Positions 1,281-39,526 of a DNA stretch of 64,000 bases are shown here, piece by piece. Under the pieces are notes generated by a model, which worked only from the letters and a program-made list of their open reading frames with translations, did no database searches and had not been told where the DNA came from. Source of the stretch: Promethearchaeota archaeon (GTDB lineage Archaea; Asgardarchaeota; Lokiarchaeia; Sigyniarchaeales; SOKP01). The first letter of the stretch is position 1; each line of letters opens with the position of its first letter. Location: positions 1 to 64,000 of the forward strand of contig JAFGGO010000129.1 of the NCBI GenBank assembly GCA_016930515.1, written 5' to 3'. The position numbers and the translations under genes are program-made.

Positions 1281-4046
1281 TTATTGTACTTTAATATTAT
1301 TCTTTCGCTTTCTTATTATAAAGCCTAATAAGACAAACATAGTTATAGAAAAGACTCCGCAAATCACGAGTAAATCGTATCCTGGAACGATGCGCTCTTC
1401 TTCTGAATCTGAATCTGAAACCTTGATAACTTCTACTTCGGCGTGAACTTCGTTTCCTGCCACATCCGTTACGTAAAATCTGATGGTAATGGTTCCGTCG
1501 TGTAATTCGTTCCACGCAGTTGAATCGATCGTGCCGTTTGTTCCTGAAAATTCAATAGGATCTCCGTCGTTTAAAGTGTACCAAGTCGAAACTACATTTG
1601 CTTCTGTTATTTCCACATCATAATCTGGCGCAGAATCACATTCTTGCCCATTTATGGGAAAGATTATCGAGATCAGGGGAGCCTGAGTATCTTTGAATAC
1701 ATAAACTCTCGCGCTTCTCTGGTTTCCAATGGAATCATTTGCGTAAAAAGCAATCTCAATTAATCCATCCTCTAATCCATCCCATATAGTCGCATTTAAC
1801 GTGCCCGTGCTAGTTCCGTTATCGCCAGAAAGTAAAATTGGAGATCTACGATTGATCTTGTACCATGTAGAATCCACATCGTTTCCTTCAATCCAAATAT
1901 CGAACGCAGGTGGAGTCGCATCGAATACTTGATCCTCCAATGGTAAATTGATTGTAATGTTTGGACCAATCAATTGAGACCACGCCACGAGAACGAATTC
2001 AATCGATGATGTACTATTCATATAACTCAATAGAACTCCCGTTGCGGTATCGAACTTCACTTCCGTATCGATTGATGCATTAAAACTGACATATTCGCAC
2101 GATCTTCCCCCATAAGTTCCAGATTGCGTGCCAAAATATAAGATGGCAAATTGTATAATTTCTGATGATATTAGTAAAGGAAATGAATTCGGACCAGAAG
2201 CGTTAAGCATTTGATTGTTCAGAGGTGCTGAAGTATCTGTAAAAATTGTTCCAAGTGGAGAAAGCGGATACTCTGGAACATCAGTCACCAGAATTCCCGT
2301 GTAATTTTGGGGCACACCGCCTTCGAGCGTTTCGTAGGTCCACTCGTCTTCTTCCTCGACAAGATAGTGCGGGCGATCTAATATGTCCCAACTTGTAAGA
2401 GTGTATACAATCGTATCCGAGGCAGTAACCATCGACATGTATAACATGATTCCCGTTTCTGTATCAATGTGAATTGTATAAGTACTTTCGTTGTAAGATG
2501 CAGACATTTGCACATATTCGCATAACTTATCTCCATATGTATCCCAGTATGTTCCCTCCGTATCAGCTAAATTAGCAATCCTATACGAATCAAAAACATA
2601 CGGGTTAAGTTCTTGATCCGATTGTACGGTACCCATCATGTTTATGTTTCCAAGAGGGTAATCTGGATATTCTGGAACCGATGTCACCTCGATACTCATT
2701 TGTATGGTCATACCAGATGCACTAAAGTCGTAAGTCCACATGTCTCCAACTTGAACCAGCCAGTGTGGTAATTCAAATAATTCCCAATCGGTGAGAACGA
2801 AAGATTGAGAGTAGTGCGTCTTATTCAAGACAATACCCGTGCTATTGTCAACATATAATGTCGTCGATGATCCATCATCAATCACGACATAATAACAAAG
2901 CCTACCACCATAAGTTCCCGAAAAGGTACCACCCGTGGCTGCTGCATCCCCAATCGTGACGTTGTCAAAAACGAACAGGTAAGAAAGAAGCAGGTCTTCC
3001 TCTCCGTAATAACCACTTGGGTCGTAGACATTTCCTCGAGGAGAGCGGGGGAATTCTGGAACGCTCTTGACTGCAACTCCTAATTCATTCCCAGTTGGGC
3101 TTCCGTTGTCCAATTCTTCATAAACCCATTCATTGCCCTCGGAAACGAGCCATTGTGTTGGTTCCGTGACCATTCCAGCAAGCGACCAATCCACCAGAAT
3201 GTACTGATCGTTTGGATATCCGTACTCCATTGTTGCGTTAAGAGTTACACCTGTGGCGTTGTCAACATAGTATAATATCCCCTCATCCACGTCTTCAATG
3301 ACGACATAATAACAGAACCTTCCTCCATAAGTTCCCGAAAAAGTACCATTAGTGGTTGCCGCGTTTTCTATCGTGATATTATCAAAAACGAGCCTGAACA
3401 AGGAAAAGCTATAAAGTCCTTCAATAGAAGGCGCAGATCCATTCCTATACAAGTCCCCAAGGGGTTCAGAAGGATAATTTTGGGCATCAGAAACCTCGAC
3501 TCCCAAATAACCCGTGAGGAGTCCGGAAGATGAGGTGTTATAGACCCATTCGTCCCCTTCTTCAACGAGCCATTCTCCAGGTTCAATTACGGGGTCCCAA
3601 TCCACGAGGGTATAATTTTCATAAGATGAAGTTTTTTCTAACACGATTCCAGTAGCAGTATCAACAACATAGGACTCGCCAGAAATCGATGCTACAATGC
3701 AATAACAAGATAGTTCATCATAGGTTCGGTATTCATAAACACCGCCGTAGTACAATAAATCGTCCATTGCCCAATCATCGAATACAAAATTATTAAGTAT
3801 TTCGTTTGGAGAAACTAACGAAGAATTCAAGAATATTGCTCCTAATGCACCCCAGGATTCAACATTAGTTACTTGGATCGTCAAATTTCCCGTGCCGTAA
3901 GCACCTTCTACATAATCGTACATCCACGAATCTCCTACTGTTACATAGTAATCTGCCGCAACATTCGTCGTTAAAATGCAACAGGATAAAAACAGGCTGG
4001 AAATAAGCATCGTTAAAAGCATTAATTTTCTTTTTAAGGTTTTCAT
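1281..4046 (-). CDS. Secreted/cell-surface repeat protein with C-terminal VPGY-TM-basic anchor (Loki-CTERM-like)
   Basis: Signal peptide; five ~130-aa repeats (W/YxVxxGDxWxY...DxxTGIxL); two Ig-like domains; VPGYDLLVICGVFSITMFVLLGFIIRKRK tail. Confidence 0.8.
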   Translation of the reverse strand: MKTLKRKLMLLTMLISSLFLSCCILTTNVAADYYVTVGDSWMYDYVEGAYGTGNLTIQVTNVESWGALGAIFLNSSLVSPNEILNNFVFDDWAMDDLLYYGGVYEYRTYDELSCYCIVASISGESYVVDTATGIVLEKTSSYENYTLVDWDPVIEPGEWLVEEGDEWVYNTSSSGLLTGYLGVEVSDAQNYPSEPLGDLYRNGSAPSIEGLYSFSLFRLVFDNITIENAATTNGTFSGTYGGRFCYYVVIEDVDEGILYYVDNATGVTLNATMEYGYPNDQYILVDWSLAGMVTEPTQWLVSEGNEWVYEELDNGSPTGNELGVAVKSVPEFPRSPRGNVYDPSGYYGEEDLLLSYLFVFDNVTIGDAAATGGTFSGTYGGRLCYYVVIDDGSSTTLYVDNSTGIVLNKTHYSQSFVLTDWELFELPHWLVQVGDMWTYDFSASGMTIQMSIEVTSVPEYPDYPLGNINMMGTVQSDQELNPYVFDSYRIANLADTEGTYWDTYGDKLCEYVQMSASYNESTYTIHIDTETGIMLYMSMVTASDTIVYTLTSWDILDRPHYLVEEEDEWTYETLEGGVPQNYTGILVTDVPEYPLSPLGTIFTDTSAPLNNQMLNASGPNSFPLLISSEIIQFAILYFGTQSGTYGGRSCEYVSFNASIDTEVKFDTATGVLLSYMNSTSSIEFVLVAWSQLIGPNITINLPLEDQVFDATPPAFDIWIEGNDVDSTWYKINRRSPILLSGDNGTSTGTLNATIWDGLEDGLIEIAFYANDSIGNQRSARVYVFKDTQAPLISIIFPINGQECDSAPDYDVEITEANVVSTWYTLNDGDPIEFSGTNGTIDSTAWNELHDGTITIRFYVTDVAGNEVHAEVEVIKVSDSDSEEERIVPGYDLLVICGVFSITMFVLLGFIIRKRKNNIKVQ

Positions 4047-4238
4047 TTTTGTTCCTAAAACTACTTTTGATTATTAATAGCTAAATCGAGATCTATTATA
4101 AAGGTGACCAGATAGTGAAAATTACTATTTTGAAGATACTAAATATGACATTGTTTAACTCATTCAAAAAAAGATTTCGAGCTTACTTTGTTGAAAAATA
4201 GAGTTTAAAAATAAAAGAAAAGTAGAGAATTATAAAAA

Positions 4239-5324
4239 TTACTTTTGGTTGAGATAATCGTTCATTTCAACAAAAGAACTGGTTCTTATCAGGGCAGACT
4301 TGAGAAATTGGAATCCAATGTCGTACGTGGACCCGTCTCCGCCTATATGAATGACATAAGGAATCTCGTTCTTGTATAATCCCTTTGATTTGAGGATCTT
4401 TTTGGTGGTTGAAATTGCGTCTGCAATGGTGGCTCCCGACTCGAATAGATGGTGCACCCATGGAACCTTCCAGGAAGTAAGATTGTCTTTAGATGTGGAC
4501 ACTTCCGAGCAGCTCGTGTTGTTCACGTACACGATGTTTTTTCCAGCAACGGCGTAAGCTGCCGTGGCCATCTGATTTAAAACCATGCCAGCACCGCATC
4601 CCGGGCACAATCCGTGACCCGGATGTAAGTGTTGTTGGGGCTCAAGAGCCTTTCGATCCACCTTGTAAAAGTCTACTGGTTTTTCCGCTCCAAACTTTTC
4701 AAACAGATCTTTTAACTTGTTGTTTCGTTGTTCGGTGTAATAAATTATCTCGTCTATGTTTTTTTCCAAGAATTTCGGCCTAAAAAGGTGCCTAAAACGC
4801 CCCATAGATTTCAAATACTCCACGAACTTATCCTTGTCAATGTCTAGACCGCGATAGTAACTAAAAATTGGACGACCGTCTTCAACGCGGACCGTATAAA
4901 GCGGCCAATAACCGCAATCAGTAGCCATTTTCGATATTTTTAAAGCGTCTTCAGCACCATGTCGCCAACCCCTCATACAATCGGAATAAGCTTGAATGAA
5001 CGCAGAACCGTTTGATTTTAAAGCGTCCGCAACCTTCCCCATGAAATCAGCGGGATACGCAGGATTCGTGGTTGCTAAAAAAAGTTTTTTTGTACCATAA
5101 AACGCAAAGGGAGTGACCAAGTCTTGTTTTACGCCAATCTTTCCCGGTATCAATTCACCTGCAGGACCTGTAGTAGTAGAGGCATACGATGGCGTTCCAC
5201 CTGATTCTTGGATTCCCGTGTTCATAAAAGCTTCATTGTCATAGTTAAAAAATAATACATTACATTTCTCCTTTCTATTAAGGATGTCTTCAAAGTTTAT
5301 TGTATTTCGTTCAGGTTGATTCAT
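4239..5324 (-). CDS. porB: Pyruvate/2-oxoisovalerate-type ferredoxin oxidoreductase beta (TPP-binding) subunit, circularly permuted
   Basis: YDNEAFMNTGIQ near the N-terminus; GHGLCPGCG, NxTSCSEV, PWVH and GGDGSTYDIG in the C-terminal half; in operon with alpha and gamma/delta. Confidence 0.85.
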   Translation of the reverse strand: MNQPERNTINFEDILNRKEKCNVLFFNYDNEAFMNTGIQESGGTPSYASTTTGPAGELIPGKIGVKQDLVTPFAFYGTKKLFLATTNPAYPADFMGKVADALKSNGSAFIQAYSDCMRGWRHGAEDALKISKMATDCGYWPLYTVRVEDGRPIFSYYRGLDIDKDKFVEYLKSMGRFRHLFRPKFLEKNIDEIIYYTEQRNNKLKDLFEKFGAEKPVDFYKVDRKALEPQQHLHPGHGLCPGCGAGMVLNQMATAAYAVAGKNIVYVNNTSCSEVSTSKDNLTSWKVPWVHHLFESGATIADAISTTKKILKSKGLYKNEIPYVIHIGGDGSTYDIGFQFLKSALIRTSSFVEMNDYLNQK

Positions 5325-33311: not shown

Positions 33312-33496
33312 TAGATCTGAACACACATTCAAAAATTCAAAATGATCAAAGAGCGAAAATAGGAGGATTAGTCAATCTTCCACAATGTTATTCAAACTAC
33401 AATAAAAGCGATTTGAGTTGTCGTCAATGCGCTTTTCAAGATAGTTGTAAAGGGCTACCTAGCCCAAAGGAGCCTGAATGGTGTAATTCGATTTAA
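33305..33496 (+). CDS. Small Cys-rich peptide 1
   Basis: PQCYSNY...CRQCAFQDSCK...PKEPEWC; paralogue immediately downstream. Confidence 0.75.
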   Translation: MVIDLNTHSKIQNDQRAKIGGLVNLPQCYSNYNKSDLSCRQCAFQDSCKGLPSPKEPEWCNSI

Positions 33497-35149: not shown

Positions 35150-37198
35150 TTGACCGAGATTTCGAAAATATTTGAAGAAAACCCCGGAAAAGAAATATTA
35201 ATGTCGGGTAACGAAGCGTTTGCGAGAGGAATCTTTGAAGCGGGAGTAAGATTTACAGCTAATTATCCTGGAACGCCCTTAAGCGAGGTGGGAGACATTT
35301 TAAAATATTTATCTGAAACAAATTTGGATTTTACTTTTGATTACGCTTTAAACGAAAAGATTGCCCTTGAATCTTGTATAGGAGTAAGTTGGGCAGGATT
35401 AAGAAGTGTTGCAATGTTTAAACATGTGGGTTTAAATGTAGCGGCAGATCCATTGCACACATTTCCATACTCAGGAACTATAGGTGGAATGCTGATTCTT
35501 TGTGGTGGAGATCCAGGGATTTTATCTTCAACAAACGCACAGGACAATCGATTGTACTCCCTTCATACCAAAATACCCATTATCGAACCTACAACGGTTC
35601 AAGAATGCAAGAATTTCGTAATTGAATCACTTCGATTATCGGAAGACTTTCAAATACCGATTTATATTCATGTTACGACTCGTCTTTGCCATAGTCAGGG
35701 TATTGTAGAATATGGTCCTATCGATAAGCGCGATAAGATTGGTCGATTTGAAAAAAACTCTACTCGCTATGTGAACACTTTATGGAAGGCCCGTGCAAAC
35801 CAACAAAAATACTACAAAAAAATTGGAAAACTCGCAGGCAAAAAAGACCCATGCAAAACCTTCAACTCGATTAAATGGAGTAACAGTAAGGAAAATGTTG
35901 GGATCGTTTCTAGTGGAATCTGTTATAGTTACATTGTTGAGGCGTGTCACGCGCTAGAAATAAAACCTCCCATACTCAAGTTGGGGTTAATATATCCAAT
36001 TAATAGAACAGAACTCACGGAATTTGTTAGTAAGAATCGTTTAGATACTCTTTTAGTCGTGGAAGAATTAGAACCATTCATAGAAATGTCACTGAAGGAA
36101 GTGTTTTGGAAACCATCAAGCGATTTTAAAAACATTAATATACATGGGAAGGATAAATTACCAAGAACGGGGGAATTGAGCACGGAAATCGTCATCAAAT
36201 TTTTAGCAACATATTTTACTCATAAAAACGAAGAAATTTTAAAAGATATCGATAGGAAAGAGAATGTTCTCGAAGAGATTATTCCGTCTCTCCCCATTCG
36301 AGAACCAACATTCTGTCCTGGATGCCAATATCGTCCCGTTTTTTATCAACTTAAAAAGGTAGTAAACGAACTAGCAAAAAAAAAAGGATGGGAATTTATT
36401 TATTCAGGGGATATTGGTTGTTACACTTTATCCGAGGCTTATCCATATGAAATGTTGGATTGGGTCGTATGTATGGGCGCTGGGATAGGGATAGCTCAAG
36501 GAATGGCCCATGTCATCGATCCAGAAAAACAAAAACTCATCGCCTTTATTGGAGATGGAACTTTTTTTCATTCAGGTATCCAATCTTTATTTAACGCCCT
36601 AAAAAACGACCTTGATATGACTATCATGATTTTTAATAACGATTGGACAGCCATGACGGGTCATCAAGAACATCTTGCAACACCCAGGAATTTTATCAAG
36701 CGTTTTGGTACAGAAACGAGTGTTGATAAGAACAGAATCGATTTGATTCATTTTCTCGAGCATTTGGGAATTGAAAATTTGATAATTACTGACGCTTACG
36801 ACCTTCACAAGCTCGAAAGGATCTTCTTAAGTACGCTTCAAAAACATGGACTTAAAGTTATTGTTATTAAAGAGGAATGCGCCTTGGAAAAAAAAAGAAG
36901 ATTGAAATTAGACCATAAAGACTCTGAAAAGCAAGATGTGGAGACCTATTACACGCTTTCGGAATCATGCGTGAAATGCAACGAATGTATTGATGTTTTA
37001 GGGTGTCCTGCAATAAACGCAAGATTAGTAAGAAAAGATATTAACGAAAAGGATTTAAGCAAGTTCGAAACCGAAACCTTATATTATATTGACGAGGCAA
37101 GATGCGTTCCTGAAATATGCCCTGGCGTTTGTAAAATGGCGTGTCCAAATAGTTTAATACGAAAAACCACCATACTTAGAAATCTCAAAAGTCCTTAA
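35150..37198 (+). CDS. iorA: Indolepyruvate:ferredoxin oxidoreductase alpha subunit
   Basis: GNEAFARG, YPGTP, NEKIALE, KHVGLNVAADP, FCPGC, GDIGCY, IGDGTFFHSG, AMTGHQ, C-terminal ferredoxin. Confidence 0.93.
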   Translation: MTEISKIFEENPGKEILMSGNEAFARGIFEAGVRFTANYPGTPLSEVGDILKYLSETNLDFTFDYALNEKIALESCIGVSWAGLRSVAMFKHVGLNVAADPLHTFPYSGTIGGMLILCGGDPGILSSTNAQDNRLYSLHTKIPIIEPTTVQECKNFVIESLRLSEDFQIPIYIHVTTRLCHSQGIVEYGPIDKRDKIGRFEKNSTRYVNTLWKARANQQKYYKKIGKLAGKKDPCKTFNSIKWSNSKENVGIVSSGICYSYIVEACHALEIKPPILKLGLIYPINRTELTEFVSKNRLDTLLVVEELEPFIEMSLKEVFWKPSSDFKNINIHGKDKLPRTGELSTEIVIKFLATYFTHKNEEILKDIDRKENVLEEIIPSLPIREPTFCPGCQYRPVFYQLKKVVNELAKKKGWEFIYSGDIGCYTLSEAYPYEMLDWVVCMGAGIGIAQGMAHVIDPEKQKLIAFIGDGTFFHSGIQSLFNALKNDLDMTIMIFNNDWTAMTGHQEHLATPRNFIKRFGTETSVDKNRIDLIHFLEHLGIENLIITDAYDLHKLERIFLSTLQKHGLKVIVIKEECALEKKRRLKLDHKDSEKQDVETYYTLSESCVKCNECIDVLGCPAINARLVRKDINEKDLSKFETETLYYIDEARCVPEICPGVCKMACPNSLIRKTTILRNLKSP

Positions 37199-37270: not shown

Positions 37271-38455
37271 TTATCCGAGCAGCCCCCTCCTGTTAATAAA
37301 ATCTATCATGTATATGAATTCTTCAAAGTCTTGGTAATTTCCTAATTTTTTGGTAAAATCGACGATGCTTTTATCTTGGAAAAAAAATGCGAGAACGAAT
37401 ACCTTATCAATATTAAATTCAGACATGAGTTTGTTTAAAATTCGGTCAATACGATCCAAATACTTGATACGAATTCGCGAATATAATAAATCATCAAGGA
37501 GAAATCGCTTAAGGAGAGGTATTTTTTCCTTCGAAATCTCGTTTTCTTTGAAAAAGTCGCTTAACAGAAGCAAGCGCGGACAAATGGATATTAATTTATC
37601 TTGTAAGAAGGATTTTTTAAGAAATTCTGAAAGAACTGGATTTAACCACAAGATATTTCTCTCGTTCTTTAGGTTCACGCATAAAATATTCGATTGAAAA
37701 ATCCACAAGTGAAAGATTTTATCGGCAATTGAGAAGGAAAGATACGGAGGAATTTCTATATACGCACGCATCGCGTCGTGAATCCTATTATATATAATAT
37801 GCGTGAGTTCGACAGTATTAAACAATGGAGAACATACTAAATCGTAAATCCAATGGTCGGATGTATTAAAAATGATAAGCATTTCATACAATGGATGTGA
37901 TTTAACGACATCTTTATTCTCTTCACTATATTTAAAAAATTTTAGATTTAATTTTTCTTTGCTCTCGAAATTTTCCAATTTCACGGAATTAGACTTGATA
38001 ACATCGCTTACTATTCCATTTTCTTCTACTATAACCGTGTTTATGTGAATTTCGTTTTTATAATAATGGATAACCTTAAAAGAACGCAATTGTTTTCCTA
38101 AAAATTGCTCGTAAGGTTGCATAGCAAGATATGAATTTTCGTCTTCGGTCCTAAATTTAATGATTGCATTGCATATTTGACATTTAAATCGTATTGTATC
38201 GGAACCTTCAGGTACTTCAAAATCTACTTTTTGATAACCTCTTACAATAAGATTGGCGTCTAAAAATATTTGGAATTGATGCTCACAAATAGTATTTTTT
38301 GGAATTGAAATCGTTGTCAGACCAGTTCTTTTTACTATGTTTTTTGGAAGATGTATGATTTTTTTATGTTGACAAGCGGGACATTGAACTTGCACTCCCC
38401 TTTCCTCAGATTCTTTTTCATTAAGCAAGAAGACATTATCACTAATTTCAATCAC
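37271..38455 (-). CDS. Hypothetical protein with two N-terminal zinc-ribbon-like domains
   Basis: CPAC...CEH and CQIC...H..H motifs; 394 aa. Confidence 0.7.
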   Translation of the reverse strand: MIEISDNVFLLNEKESEERGVQVQCPACQHKKIIHLPKNIVKRTGLTTISIPKNTICEHQFQIFLDANLIVRGYQKVDFEVPEGSDTIRFKCQICNAIIKFRTEDENSYLAMQPYEQFLGKQLRSFKVIHYYKNEIHINTVIVEENGIVSDVIKSNSVKLENFESKEKLNLKFFKYSEENKDVVKSHPLYEMLIIFNTSDHWIYDLVCSPLFNTVELTHIIYNRIHDAMRAYIEIPPYLSFSIADKIFHLWIFQSNILCVNLKNERNILWLNPVLSEFLKKSFLQDKLISICPRLLLLSDFFKENEISKEKIPLLKRFLLDDLLYSRIRIKYLDRIDRILNKLMSEFNIDKVFVLAFFFQDKSIVDFTKKLGNYQDFEEFIYMIDFINRRGLLG

Positions 38456-38783: not shown

Positions 38784-39526
38784 ATAAATTATATTTCACC
38801 TTATCCATTACCAAAGAACATCATAGAAAAAAGTGAGTTTAAAATAGGAGATATTTATAATATATTAATAACGGGCGTAGGAGGTCAAGGAGTGGTACTC
38901 TTAGGTAATATCTTACGGGAGTACGGATTGAGATCTAAAATAATTAAGAATGTGGTTGGAACGGAGACTAGAGGCGTTTCGCAGAGAGATTGTTGCGTGC
39001 TTGACAACATTCCTGCAAGGAAGGCTCGGTCTTATCCACAATTAGATACCTCATTGATGGGCGAGTTTACTCTTTAGAACAACAATACGATGTAGAAGAT
39101 TTAATCTCCCCTACAATTCCAATGAACGACGCTCACCTCGTATTAGGCTTAGAACCCCTTGAGACTTTGAGGAATATAAAATTCATTTCAGAAAAAACCG
39201 TCGTTATATTAAATACACACGAAAACGTACCTCGTAGCGTCATTTTAAAATCAAATCAAGATGTGGAATATCCAAAAATTGCTAAAATCATTGAATACAT
39301 GGATCAATTCGCAAGGCGAGTTGTTTCAATGGATTTTCACGAGTTTTCAAAAGCTAGACTTAACCATTCGGTGTTTCAAAATAGCATGATATTAGGTGTT
39401 GCCACTAAAGAATTCAAGGAAATTTTTAACAAGGAACTTATGATTAATGTTCTTAATTATTTTTTAAAAAATTCAGAAGAAAATGTAAAAGCTTTCGAGA
39501 TAGGATATGATTTAATTAATACATGA
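38784..39526 (+). CDS. iorB: Indolepyruvate:ferredoxin oxidoreductase beta subunit, interrupted by a 32-nt BHB intron (exon 1 to 38986, exon 2 from 39019); start codon uncertain
   Basis: YNILITGVGGQGV...TETRGVSQR | EGSVLSTIR...ISPTIP...LGLEPLE...NSMILG...ENVKAFEIG; both ORF-track fragments join in frame after removing 32 nt. Confidence 0.85.
38987..39018 (+). other. Putative archaeal-type (BHB) intron in protein-coding mRNA
   Basis: UUC-GCAG-AG^A-GAUUGUUG...CAACAUUC-CUGC-AA^G-GAA: 4-bp helix flanked by two 3-nt bulges, with outer and inner stems. Confidence 0.8.

What the first reader, a model, noticed from the sequence alone, without database searches (positions are those of the whole stretch)
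38971..39030. Bulge-helix-bulge intron in a metabolic mRNA (iorB): candidate tRNA-endonuclease-mediated mRNA splicing in an Asgard archaeon
Seen: iorB is broken by 32 extra nt inside its conserved motif (family consensus roughly HGMAQRGGSV; here RGVSQR|EGSV). The junctions fold into a strict hBHBh': outer stem UUUC(38977-80)/GAAG(39020-23), central helix GCAG(38981-84)/CUGC(39013-16), 3-nt bulges AGA and AAG on opposite strands, inner stem GA-U-UGUUG/CAACA-U-UC. Established: the archaeal splicing endonuclease cuts after the 2nd nt of each bulge. Applying that rule removes exactly 38987-39018 and gives TCG CAG AGG GAA GGC (S-Q-R-E-G), in frame with the 39122-39526 ORF. Unspliced mRNA stops at 39077. 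The well-known archaeal mRNA BHB intron is in crenarchaeal cbf5. Inference: EndA/RtcB-dependent splicing of a central metabolic gene, possibly regulatory, would suggest overlooked mRNA introns annotated as frameshifts in this lineage.
Basis: partly seen in the sequence, partly recalled or inferred. Interest (0 to 1): 0.95.

Follow-up and report, generated by a model that had tools for sequence, protein, structure and literature searches.

The report
tRNA-type mini-intron splits Asgard iorB
A 32-base insert breaks an amino-acid-catabolism enzyme gene (iorB) in an Asgard archaeon; it has the RNA shape that tRNA-splicing enzymes cut and relatives keep that shape at the same spot, so the mRNA very probably has to be spliced, which the papers I could search confirm inside only one archaeal coding sequence (cbf5).

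Summary
Observation confirmed. Window 38987-39018 (32 nt) interrupts an IorB-family gene of a Promethearchaeota (Loki-type Asgard) archaeon and forms a bulge-helix-bulge (BHB). Cutting by the EndA rule gives VSQREGSV, which matches the motif of intact orthologues. Six other genes carry an insert at the same codon: five complete ones of 29, 32 or 34 nt and one cut by a contig end. Their loops differ but the pairing is kept: in five aligned inserts 90% of cells pair and five pairs change on both sides. Exon 2 is under the same purifying selection as intronless copies. The insert lengths fall in different frames, so one frameshift rule cannot explain them. A paralogous iorB carries a second BHB insert at another site in 12 relatives. 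This genome has BHB-like inserts in VIT1, PFK and RNase HII, and two relatives have one in rtcB. A two-subunit EndA is present; RtcB was not found in this 94%-complete assembly but is in 38 of 40 relatives. Splicing is inferred, not observed. 'Regulatory' is unsupported, because most orthologues lack the intron. The scan reported the same phenomenon on other DNA, including iorB genes with 30-31-nt inserts.

The parts
38832..38837 (+). Shine-Dalgarno-like AGTGAG upstream of the inferred start
   Evidence: Sequence; most orthologues have GGTGA/AGTGA at a similar spacing. Inference.
38844..38986 (+). iorB exon 1, from the inferred non-canonical ATA start through GVGGQG to GVSQ plus two bases of the Arg codon
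   Evidence: 70-91% identity to orthologue N-termini; start position aligned with orthologues
38977..38980 (+). outer helix, 5' strand (exon 1)
38981..38984 (+). central 4-bp helix, 5' strand GCAG (exon 1)
   Evidence: pair probability 0.96-0.97; G-C to A-U change in G008
38985..38987 (+). 5' bulge AGA; predicted cut between 38986 and 38987
   Evidence: EndA rule (established); restores the orthologue motif
38987..39018 (+). 32-nt BHB intron (hairpin, inner stem 38988-95 / 39005-12)
   Evidence: absent from 46 orthologous loci; 29/32/34-nt counterparts at the same site in relatives
39013..39016 (+). central helix, 3' strand CUGC (intron)
   Evidence: CUG invariant across aligned inserts while the loop diverges
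39017..39019 (+). 3' bulge AAG; predicted cut between 39018 and 39019
39019..39526 (+). iorB exon 2 (EGSV... to stop); its first bases form the 3' strand of the outer helix (39020-23)
   Evidence: Pfam POR PF01558 E=6.6e-11; pN/pS 0.23-0.30 against G003/G004/G005/G065
39075..39077 (+). TAG stop reached if the mRNA is not spliced (77-aa product from the ATA start)
35150..37198 (+). intact iorA-like alpha subunit (682 aa), the likely partner
   Evidence: TIGR03336 E=5.7e-159, below the equivalog cut-off; iorA lies directly upstream of iorB in most orthologous loci
37271..38455 (-). unrelated 394-aa ORF lying between iorA and iorB in this genome
   Evidence: no Pfam family

Best explanation
The 32 nt are a tRNA-type (BHB) intron in the iorB pre-mRNA. 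The transcript folds the BHB. The two-subunit splicing endonuclease EndA cuts after the second base of each bulge (38986|38987 and 39018|39019), and a ligase, most likely RtcB, joins the exons. This gives a 216-aa IorB that pairs with the nearby IorA; unspliced RNA gives a 77-aa fragment. Shown here: the structure, the same-site conservation with covariation, selection on exon 2, and the presence of EndA. Inferred: transcription, cleavage, ligation and the identity of the ligase. The intron is most likely a tolerated passenger rather than a needed regulator, because it is patchily present. It is one of many such introns in protein genes of this lineage.
For: (1) Removal by the EndA rule gives VSQREGSV in all six complete intron-bearing genes, the motif of intact orthologues. 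(2) Inserts of 32, 34, 34, 32, 29 and 32 nt sit at the same codon; a seventh is cut by a contig end in G002. (3) In five aligned inserts 90% of cells pair, five pairs change on both sides, 0 of 500 shuffles reach this, and slid controls give 31-56% (few, related sequences). (4) Exon-side constraint: 6/6 intron-bearing genes end exon 1 with TCR CAG AG, against 2/46 intronless loci. (5) Exon 2 pN/pS is 0.12-0.30 among G000/G003/G004/G005/G065 pairs and 0.10-0.33 among intronless pairs, with synonymous sites near saturation; five of six exon 2 frames are open. (6) Independent site in a paralogue: 30-31-nt inserts at GSE|MHG in 12 genomes, with a U-A to C-G change in the central helix. (7) Two EndA subunits are present, one with the Tyr/His/Lys motif and one without the His; RtcB is in 38 of 40 relatives. 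(8) In a homology-filtered genome scan, 6 BHB candidates passed against 0 mirror-image decoys; VIT1, PFK and RNase HII also join correctly at BHB-like sites.
Against: Splicing was not directly observed. The strict BHB is not the predicted minimum-energy fold; it lies 1.7-3.7 kcal/mol higher in all five genes tested. G004 has an A-C mismatch in the central helix. G008's copy has a further frameshift in a T-run near its 3' end, so it may be decaying or mis-assembled. rtcB was not found in this assembly. The intron-bearing genes are related, so the covariation counts are not independent events.
Confidence: 0.88

Rival explanations
1. Pseudogene: the insert inactivated iorB, the BHB is a relic or a by-product of how the insert arose, and it is not spliced productively.
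For: A second iorA/iorB pair exists in the genome (C111), so loss might be tolerated. No ATG start. iorB is separated from iorA by another gene. G008's copy has an extra frameshift.
Against: Exon 2 is intact and under purifying selection while synonymous sites are near saturation. Pairing is kept by compensatory changes while the loop diverges. ATA/ATC starts also occur in intronless orthologues. iorA is intact.
Confidence: 0.06
2. Translational recoding (programmed frameshift or ribosomal bypass) rather than RNA splicing reads through the insert.
For: A hairpin follows the junction. In G004, G005, G065 and L107 a GAA codon lies on both sides of the insert, as matched take-off and landing codons would require.
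Against: Lengths of 29, 32 and 34 nt need shifts in opposite directions, and the paralogue has in-frame 30-nt inserts with stops. No slippery heptamer. Matched codons are absent in this genome (GAT vs GAA) and in G008. The conserved feature is the BHB geometry.
Confidence: 0.03
3. The insert is spliced, and splicing is a regulated switch that ties IorB synthesis to EndA/RtcB activity.
For: The BHB is metastable against a slipped fold. Both iorB paralogues carry introns in some lineages, and G002, G004 and G008 have both. rtcB itself carries one in two relatives.
Against: About 46 of 52 orthologous loci lack the intron, including the sister genome G003. Introns also sit in unrelated housekeeping genes. 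No conserved loop sequence.
Confidence: 0.15
4. Assembly or sequencing artefact.
For: The genome is a metagenome-assembled one with modest depth (about 10).
Against: Same-site inserts of different sequence occur in six other assemblies. A Logan contig carries the identical insert (possibly the same sample).
Confidence: 0.01

Closest known systems
BHB intron of cbf5 pre-mRNA in Crenarchaeota (Desulfurococcales, Sulfolobales; Yokobori et al. 2009, PMC2738675)
   Same: A short intron inside a coding sequence, splitting a conserved motif within a codon. BHB at the junctions with cuts after the second bulge base. Hetero-oligomeric EndA. Patchy gain and loss. Mis-annotated or confused with frameshifting.
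   Different: Here the host is a metabolic enzyme gene in Asgard archaea, not an RNA-modification gene in Crenarchaeota. It is one of several interrupted genes in a single genome. cbf5 splicing is experimentally shown, this is not. This genome's cbf5 is not interrupted at its catalytic motif.
BHB intron in the 5' UTR of Haloferax volcanii HVO_1309 (Schwarz et al. 2020, PMC7714728)
   Same: An EndA-cut BHB intron in an mRNA.
   Different: That intron is in an untranslated region and does not break a reading frame.
Non-canonical tRNA introns of Asgard archaea (bioRxiv 10.64898/2026.10.13.758758)
   Same: Same phylum, BHB-bounded inserts, repeated gains, two-subunit EndA.
   Different: That study covers tRNA genes only; the word 'mRNA' does not occur in its main text.
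IRE1/RtcB splicing of XBP1/HAC1 mRNA in eukaryotes (from own knowledge; mentioned in PMC13149111)
   Same: A short frame-shifting intron removed by a protein nuclease and a tRNA ligase, without a spliceosome.
   Different: Different nuclease and recognition structure (two stem-loops), and a proven regulatory switch.

Membership tests
Archaeal BHB (EndA-type) intron | 4-bp central helix flanked by two 3-nt bulges on opposite strands, with outer and inner helices | tested here: met
   0.22% in shuffles
Archaeal BHB (EndA-type) intron | Cuts after the second base of each bulge restore the functional sequence | tested here: met
   VSQREGSV in six of six complete genes, matching intact orthologues
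Archaeal BHB (EndA-type) intron | Structure rather than sequence is conserved | tested here: met
   five pairs changed on both sides, slid controls lower; few related sequences
Archaeal BHB (EndA-type) intron | BHB is the favoured fold of the RNA | tested here: inconclusive
   central helix 0.96; flanking helices slipped by one base; 3.7 kcal/mol above the minimum
Archaeal BHB (EndA-type) intron | Host encodes a splicing endonuclease | tested here: met
   two PF01974 genes, catalytic-type and structural-type
Archaeal BHB (EndA-type) intron | Host encodes the RtcB ligase | tested here: inconclusive
   not found in this 94%-complete assembly; present in 38 of 40 relatives
Archaeal BHB (EndA-type) intron | Excision in vivo or cleavage in vitro | not testable with these tools
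   needs RNA from the organism or a cleavage assay
IorB (indolepyruvate ferredoxin oxidoreductase beta) family | POR domain with GxGGQG motif, linked to iorA | tested here: met
   PF01558; an intact orthologue hits IorB models best; iorA linkage
IorB (indolepyruvate ferredoxin oxidoreductase beta) family | Reaches the curated equivalog cut-off (same substrate) | tested here: not met
   TIGR03334 97 bits against a cut-off of 205.8: IorB-like, substrate unproven
Group I / group II self-splicing intron or other Rfam RNA | Catalytic core, typically hundreds of bases | tested here: not met
   32 nt; no Rfam match at E<=1
Programmed -1 frameshift | Slippery heptamer and one consistent shift | tested here: not met
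   no heptamer; insert lengths fall in different frames

The most novel reading that the evidence does not exclude
Loki-type Asgard archaea routinely splice protein-coding mRNAs with the tRNA machinery. BHB mini-introns are repeatedly gained and lost in conserved motifs of many unrelated genes (two iorB paralogues, VIT1, PFK, RNase HII, and rtcB itself), giving the closest prokaryotic relatives of eukaryotes a hidden, spliceosome-free exon-intron layer that annotation pipelines truncate.
Probability: 0.8. Interest if true: 0.9.

Novelty: new variant of a known kind. Interest (0 to 1): 0.78.

Why it matters
The papers I could search confirm one archaeal coding-sequence intron (cbf5) and one 5' UTR intron. 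A metabolic gene with a covarying BHB intron, plus several more in the same genome, implies that mRNA splicing by EndA is common in an Asgard lineage. That bears on when genes in pieces appeared on the way to eukaryotes and on possible antecedents of tRNA-ligase-dependent mRNA splicing. It also means metabolic reconstructions from these genomes are missing or truncating enzymes: only a 134-aa fragment of this protein is in public collections. The claim can be tested with one RT-PCR or one in vitro cleavage.

Tried and rejected
RNA evidence: no RNA holder listed, and two metatranscriptome contig sets of the same study laid nothing on the locus; this is no evidence either way. No intronless locus was near-identical to an intron-bearing gene (best 72-80%), so none is a spliced-transcript contig. 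Ab initio BHB scans with only a coding filter did not beat mirror-image decoys (159 vs 152; 531 vs 503; 13 vs 8); only the homology filter separated them (6 vs 0), and about two of those six look real. The insert has no other copy in the genome (best match 15 nt, E=0.06); tRNA intron sequences were not compared separately. Rfam found nothing. The promoter scan was at background and uses a bacterial model. No PDB sequence match for exon 2. A single clade of intron-bearing genes is weakly rejected (AU p=0.024, quick tree, at least 4 changes), so gain versus loss is unresolved. Six literature searches found no report of coding-sequence BHB introns in Asgard archaea; subscription journals are mostly not covered.

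Full report
Observation. The sequence at 38977-39023 is as described. The outer helix is UUUC/GAAG, the central helix GCAG/CUGC, the bulges AGA and AAG each lie 3' of the central helix, and an inner hairpin follows. Removing 38987-39018 joins an upstream frame with the GVGGQG motif to a downstream frame with a POR domain. From an ATA start at 38844 this gives 216 aa; unspliced RNA stops at 39077 after 77 aa. Only four 32-nt deletion registers restore QREG, and the BHB cut is one of them. Shuffling the insert gives a strict BHB in 0.22% of trials. The folding energy alone is unremarkable. The strict BHB is 3.7 kcal/mol above a fold in which the flanking helices slip by one base, although the central helix has probability 0.96.

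Organism and gene. The closest relatives are titled Promethearchaeota MAGs, that is Loki-type Asgard archaea. An intact orthologue scores best against IorB models but below their equivalog cut-offs, so the gene is IorB-like with unproven substrate. An intact iorA lies 1.6 kb upstream, separated here by an unrelated minus-strand gene; in most relatives the two are adjacent. The missing ATG is not a sign of decay, because ATA and ATC occupy the start position in intronless orthologues too. Public collections hold only the 134-aa fragment starting at 39122.

Comparative evidence. Searches of 61 and 135 related genomes and of a metagenome collection gave 52 full loci, with some redundancy. Forty-six are uninterrupted, nearly all reading GVSQREG. 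Six carry an insert after CAG AG: this genome (32 nt), G004 (34), G005 (34), G065 (32), G008 (29) and metagenome locus L107 (32). G002's contig begins inside a seventh. In every complete case the EndA rule restores VSQREGSV. The loops are unalignable while the paired ends are kept. In five aligned inserts, 90% of cells pair and five pairs change on both sides, including G-C to A-U in the central helix; none of 500 shuffles reach this and slid structures give 31-56%. With few related sequences this is supportive, not a probability. The exon side is constrained too: 6/6 intron-bearing genes use TCR CAG AG, against 2/46 intronless loci. Exon 2 shows pN/pS of 0.12-0.30 in pairs among G000, G003, G004, G005 and G065, the same range as intronless pairs (0.10-0.33), with synonymous sites near saturation. 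Exceptions are an A-C mismatch in G004's central helix, and a further frameshift and a higher ratio (0.34-0.44) in G008.

History. The sister gene (G003, 100/99 support) lacks the insert exactly and retains TCA CAG AG. The tree needs at least four changes, and one clade of intron-bearers is weakly rejected. Shared intron ends suggest common descent with precise losses for most copies, and G008 may be a separate gain, but this is not resolved.

Machinery. The genome has two EndA-family genes, one with the catalytic Tyr/His/Lys motif and one without the His, consistent with the two-subunit type reported for Asgard archaea. RtcB was not found in this 94%-complete assembly but is present in 38 of 40 relatives, so its absence is most likely an assembly gap.

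Not an isolated case. A paralogous iorB has 30-31-nt BHB inserts at a different site, GSE|MHG, in 12 genomes, again with compensatory changes. In this genome, ab initio scans did not beat decoys. A paralogue-homology filter gave 6 BHB hits against 0 decoys, of which iorB and a VIT1-like gene are convincing. PFK and RNase HII also rejoin at BHB-like sites (leads from earlier scan notes). Two relatives have a 29-nt BHB insert in rtcB. Those notes are leads, not support.

Mechanism and rivals. Most likely EndA cuts the pre-mRNA at both bulges and RtcB ligates the exons (0.88). The structure, conservation, selection and enzyme presence are shown; transcription, cleavage and ligation are inferred. 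A pseudogene (0.06) fits poorly with intact, conserved exon 2 sequences and covarying pairs. Recoding (0.03) fails because insert lengths need opposite shifts and there is no slippery site. An artefact (0.01) is excluded by the orthologues. A regulatory role, a sub-case of splicing (0.15), is possible but unsupported given the patchy distribution.

Comparison with what is known. Yokobori 2009 (PMC2738675) states that archaeal pre-mRNA splicing was confirmed only for cbf5, with others merely predicted. Schwarz 2020 (PMC7714728) adds a 5' UTR intron in Haloferax and still names cbf5 as the only other case. A 2026 preprint on Asgard tRNA introns does not treat mRNAs. Six searches found no report of coding-sequence BHB introns in Asgard archaea, within a library that lacks most subscription journals. 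The element works like the cbf5 intron and meets every defining feature that could be decided here; the fold-energy and RtcB tests were inconclusive, and excision is untested. What is new is the host gene, the lineage and the apparent scale. Verdict: real, very probably a spliced intron, a new variant of a known kind, interest 0.78.

Noticed in passing
L089 (G017:C222, about 4232-4260) and L090 (G021:C13, about 33458-33486): The rtcB ligase gene itself is split by a 29-nt BHB insert in two relatives; removal restores PGGVGYDINCG. If real, the ligase is needed to mature its own mRNA.
   Followed up: partly
L030, L063-L071, L074, L075 (second iorB paralogue): 30-31-nt BHB inserts at GSE|MHG in 12 genomes, with compensatory changes; this genome's copy (C111) is intact. 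G002, G004 and G008 carry inserts in both paralogues.
   Followed up: yes
own genome C94 44000-44031 (-), L092: 32-nt BHB insert in a VIT1/CCC1-like gene; removal gives an open reading frame of about 240 aa that matches a paralogue across the junction.
   Followed up: partly
own genome C126 (- strand, PFK) and C58 about 3957-3986 (+, RNase HII): A 31-nt insert with a perfect central helix splits the Asp codon of TGGGDCPG; a 30-nt insert with a relaxed BHB splits DEAGRGP (leads from earlier scan notes).
   Followed up: partly
window 38844-38846 and orthologous loci: Non-canonical starts (ATA, ATC, CTG, ACG, TTC) are common at this gene's start position across the family, mostly behind a GGTGA-type ribosome-binding site.
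   Followed up: partly
window 37271-38455 (-): 394-aa ORF with two CxxC motifs near the N-terminus and no Pfam family, lying between iorA and iorB, which are adjacent in most relatives.
   Followed up: no
L018 (G008) near the 3' end of iorB: An extra frameshift in a T-run in the intron-bearing copy: assembly error or decay.
   Followed up: no
own genome C122 about 2575 (+) and C94 (-): In-frame TGA inside mvhD-like and hdrA-like genes, probably selenocysteine (seen; my inference).
   Followed up: no
own genome: ARAGORN finds only 21 tRNA genes, many with implausible introns, consistent with heavily interrupted tRNAs.
   Followed up: no
own genome C7 17415-17448 (+) and C155 9061-9097 (-): Unverified ab initio BHB candidates near gene starts; they may be chance.
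   Followed up: no
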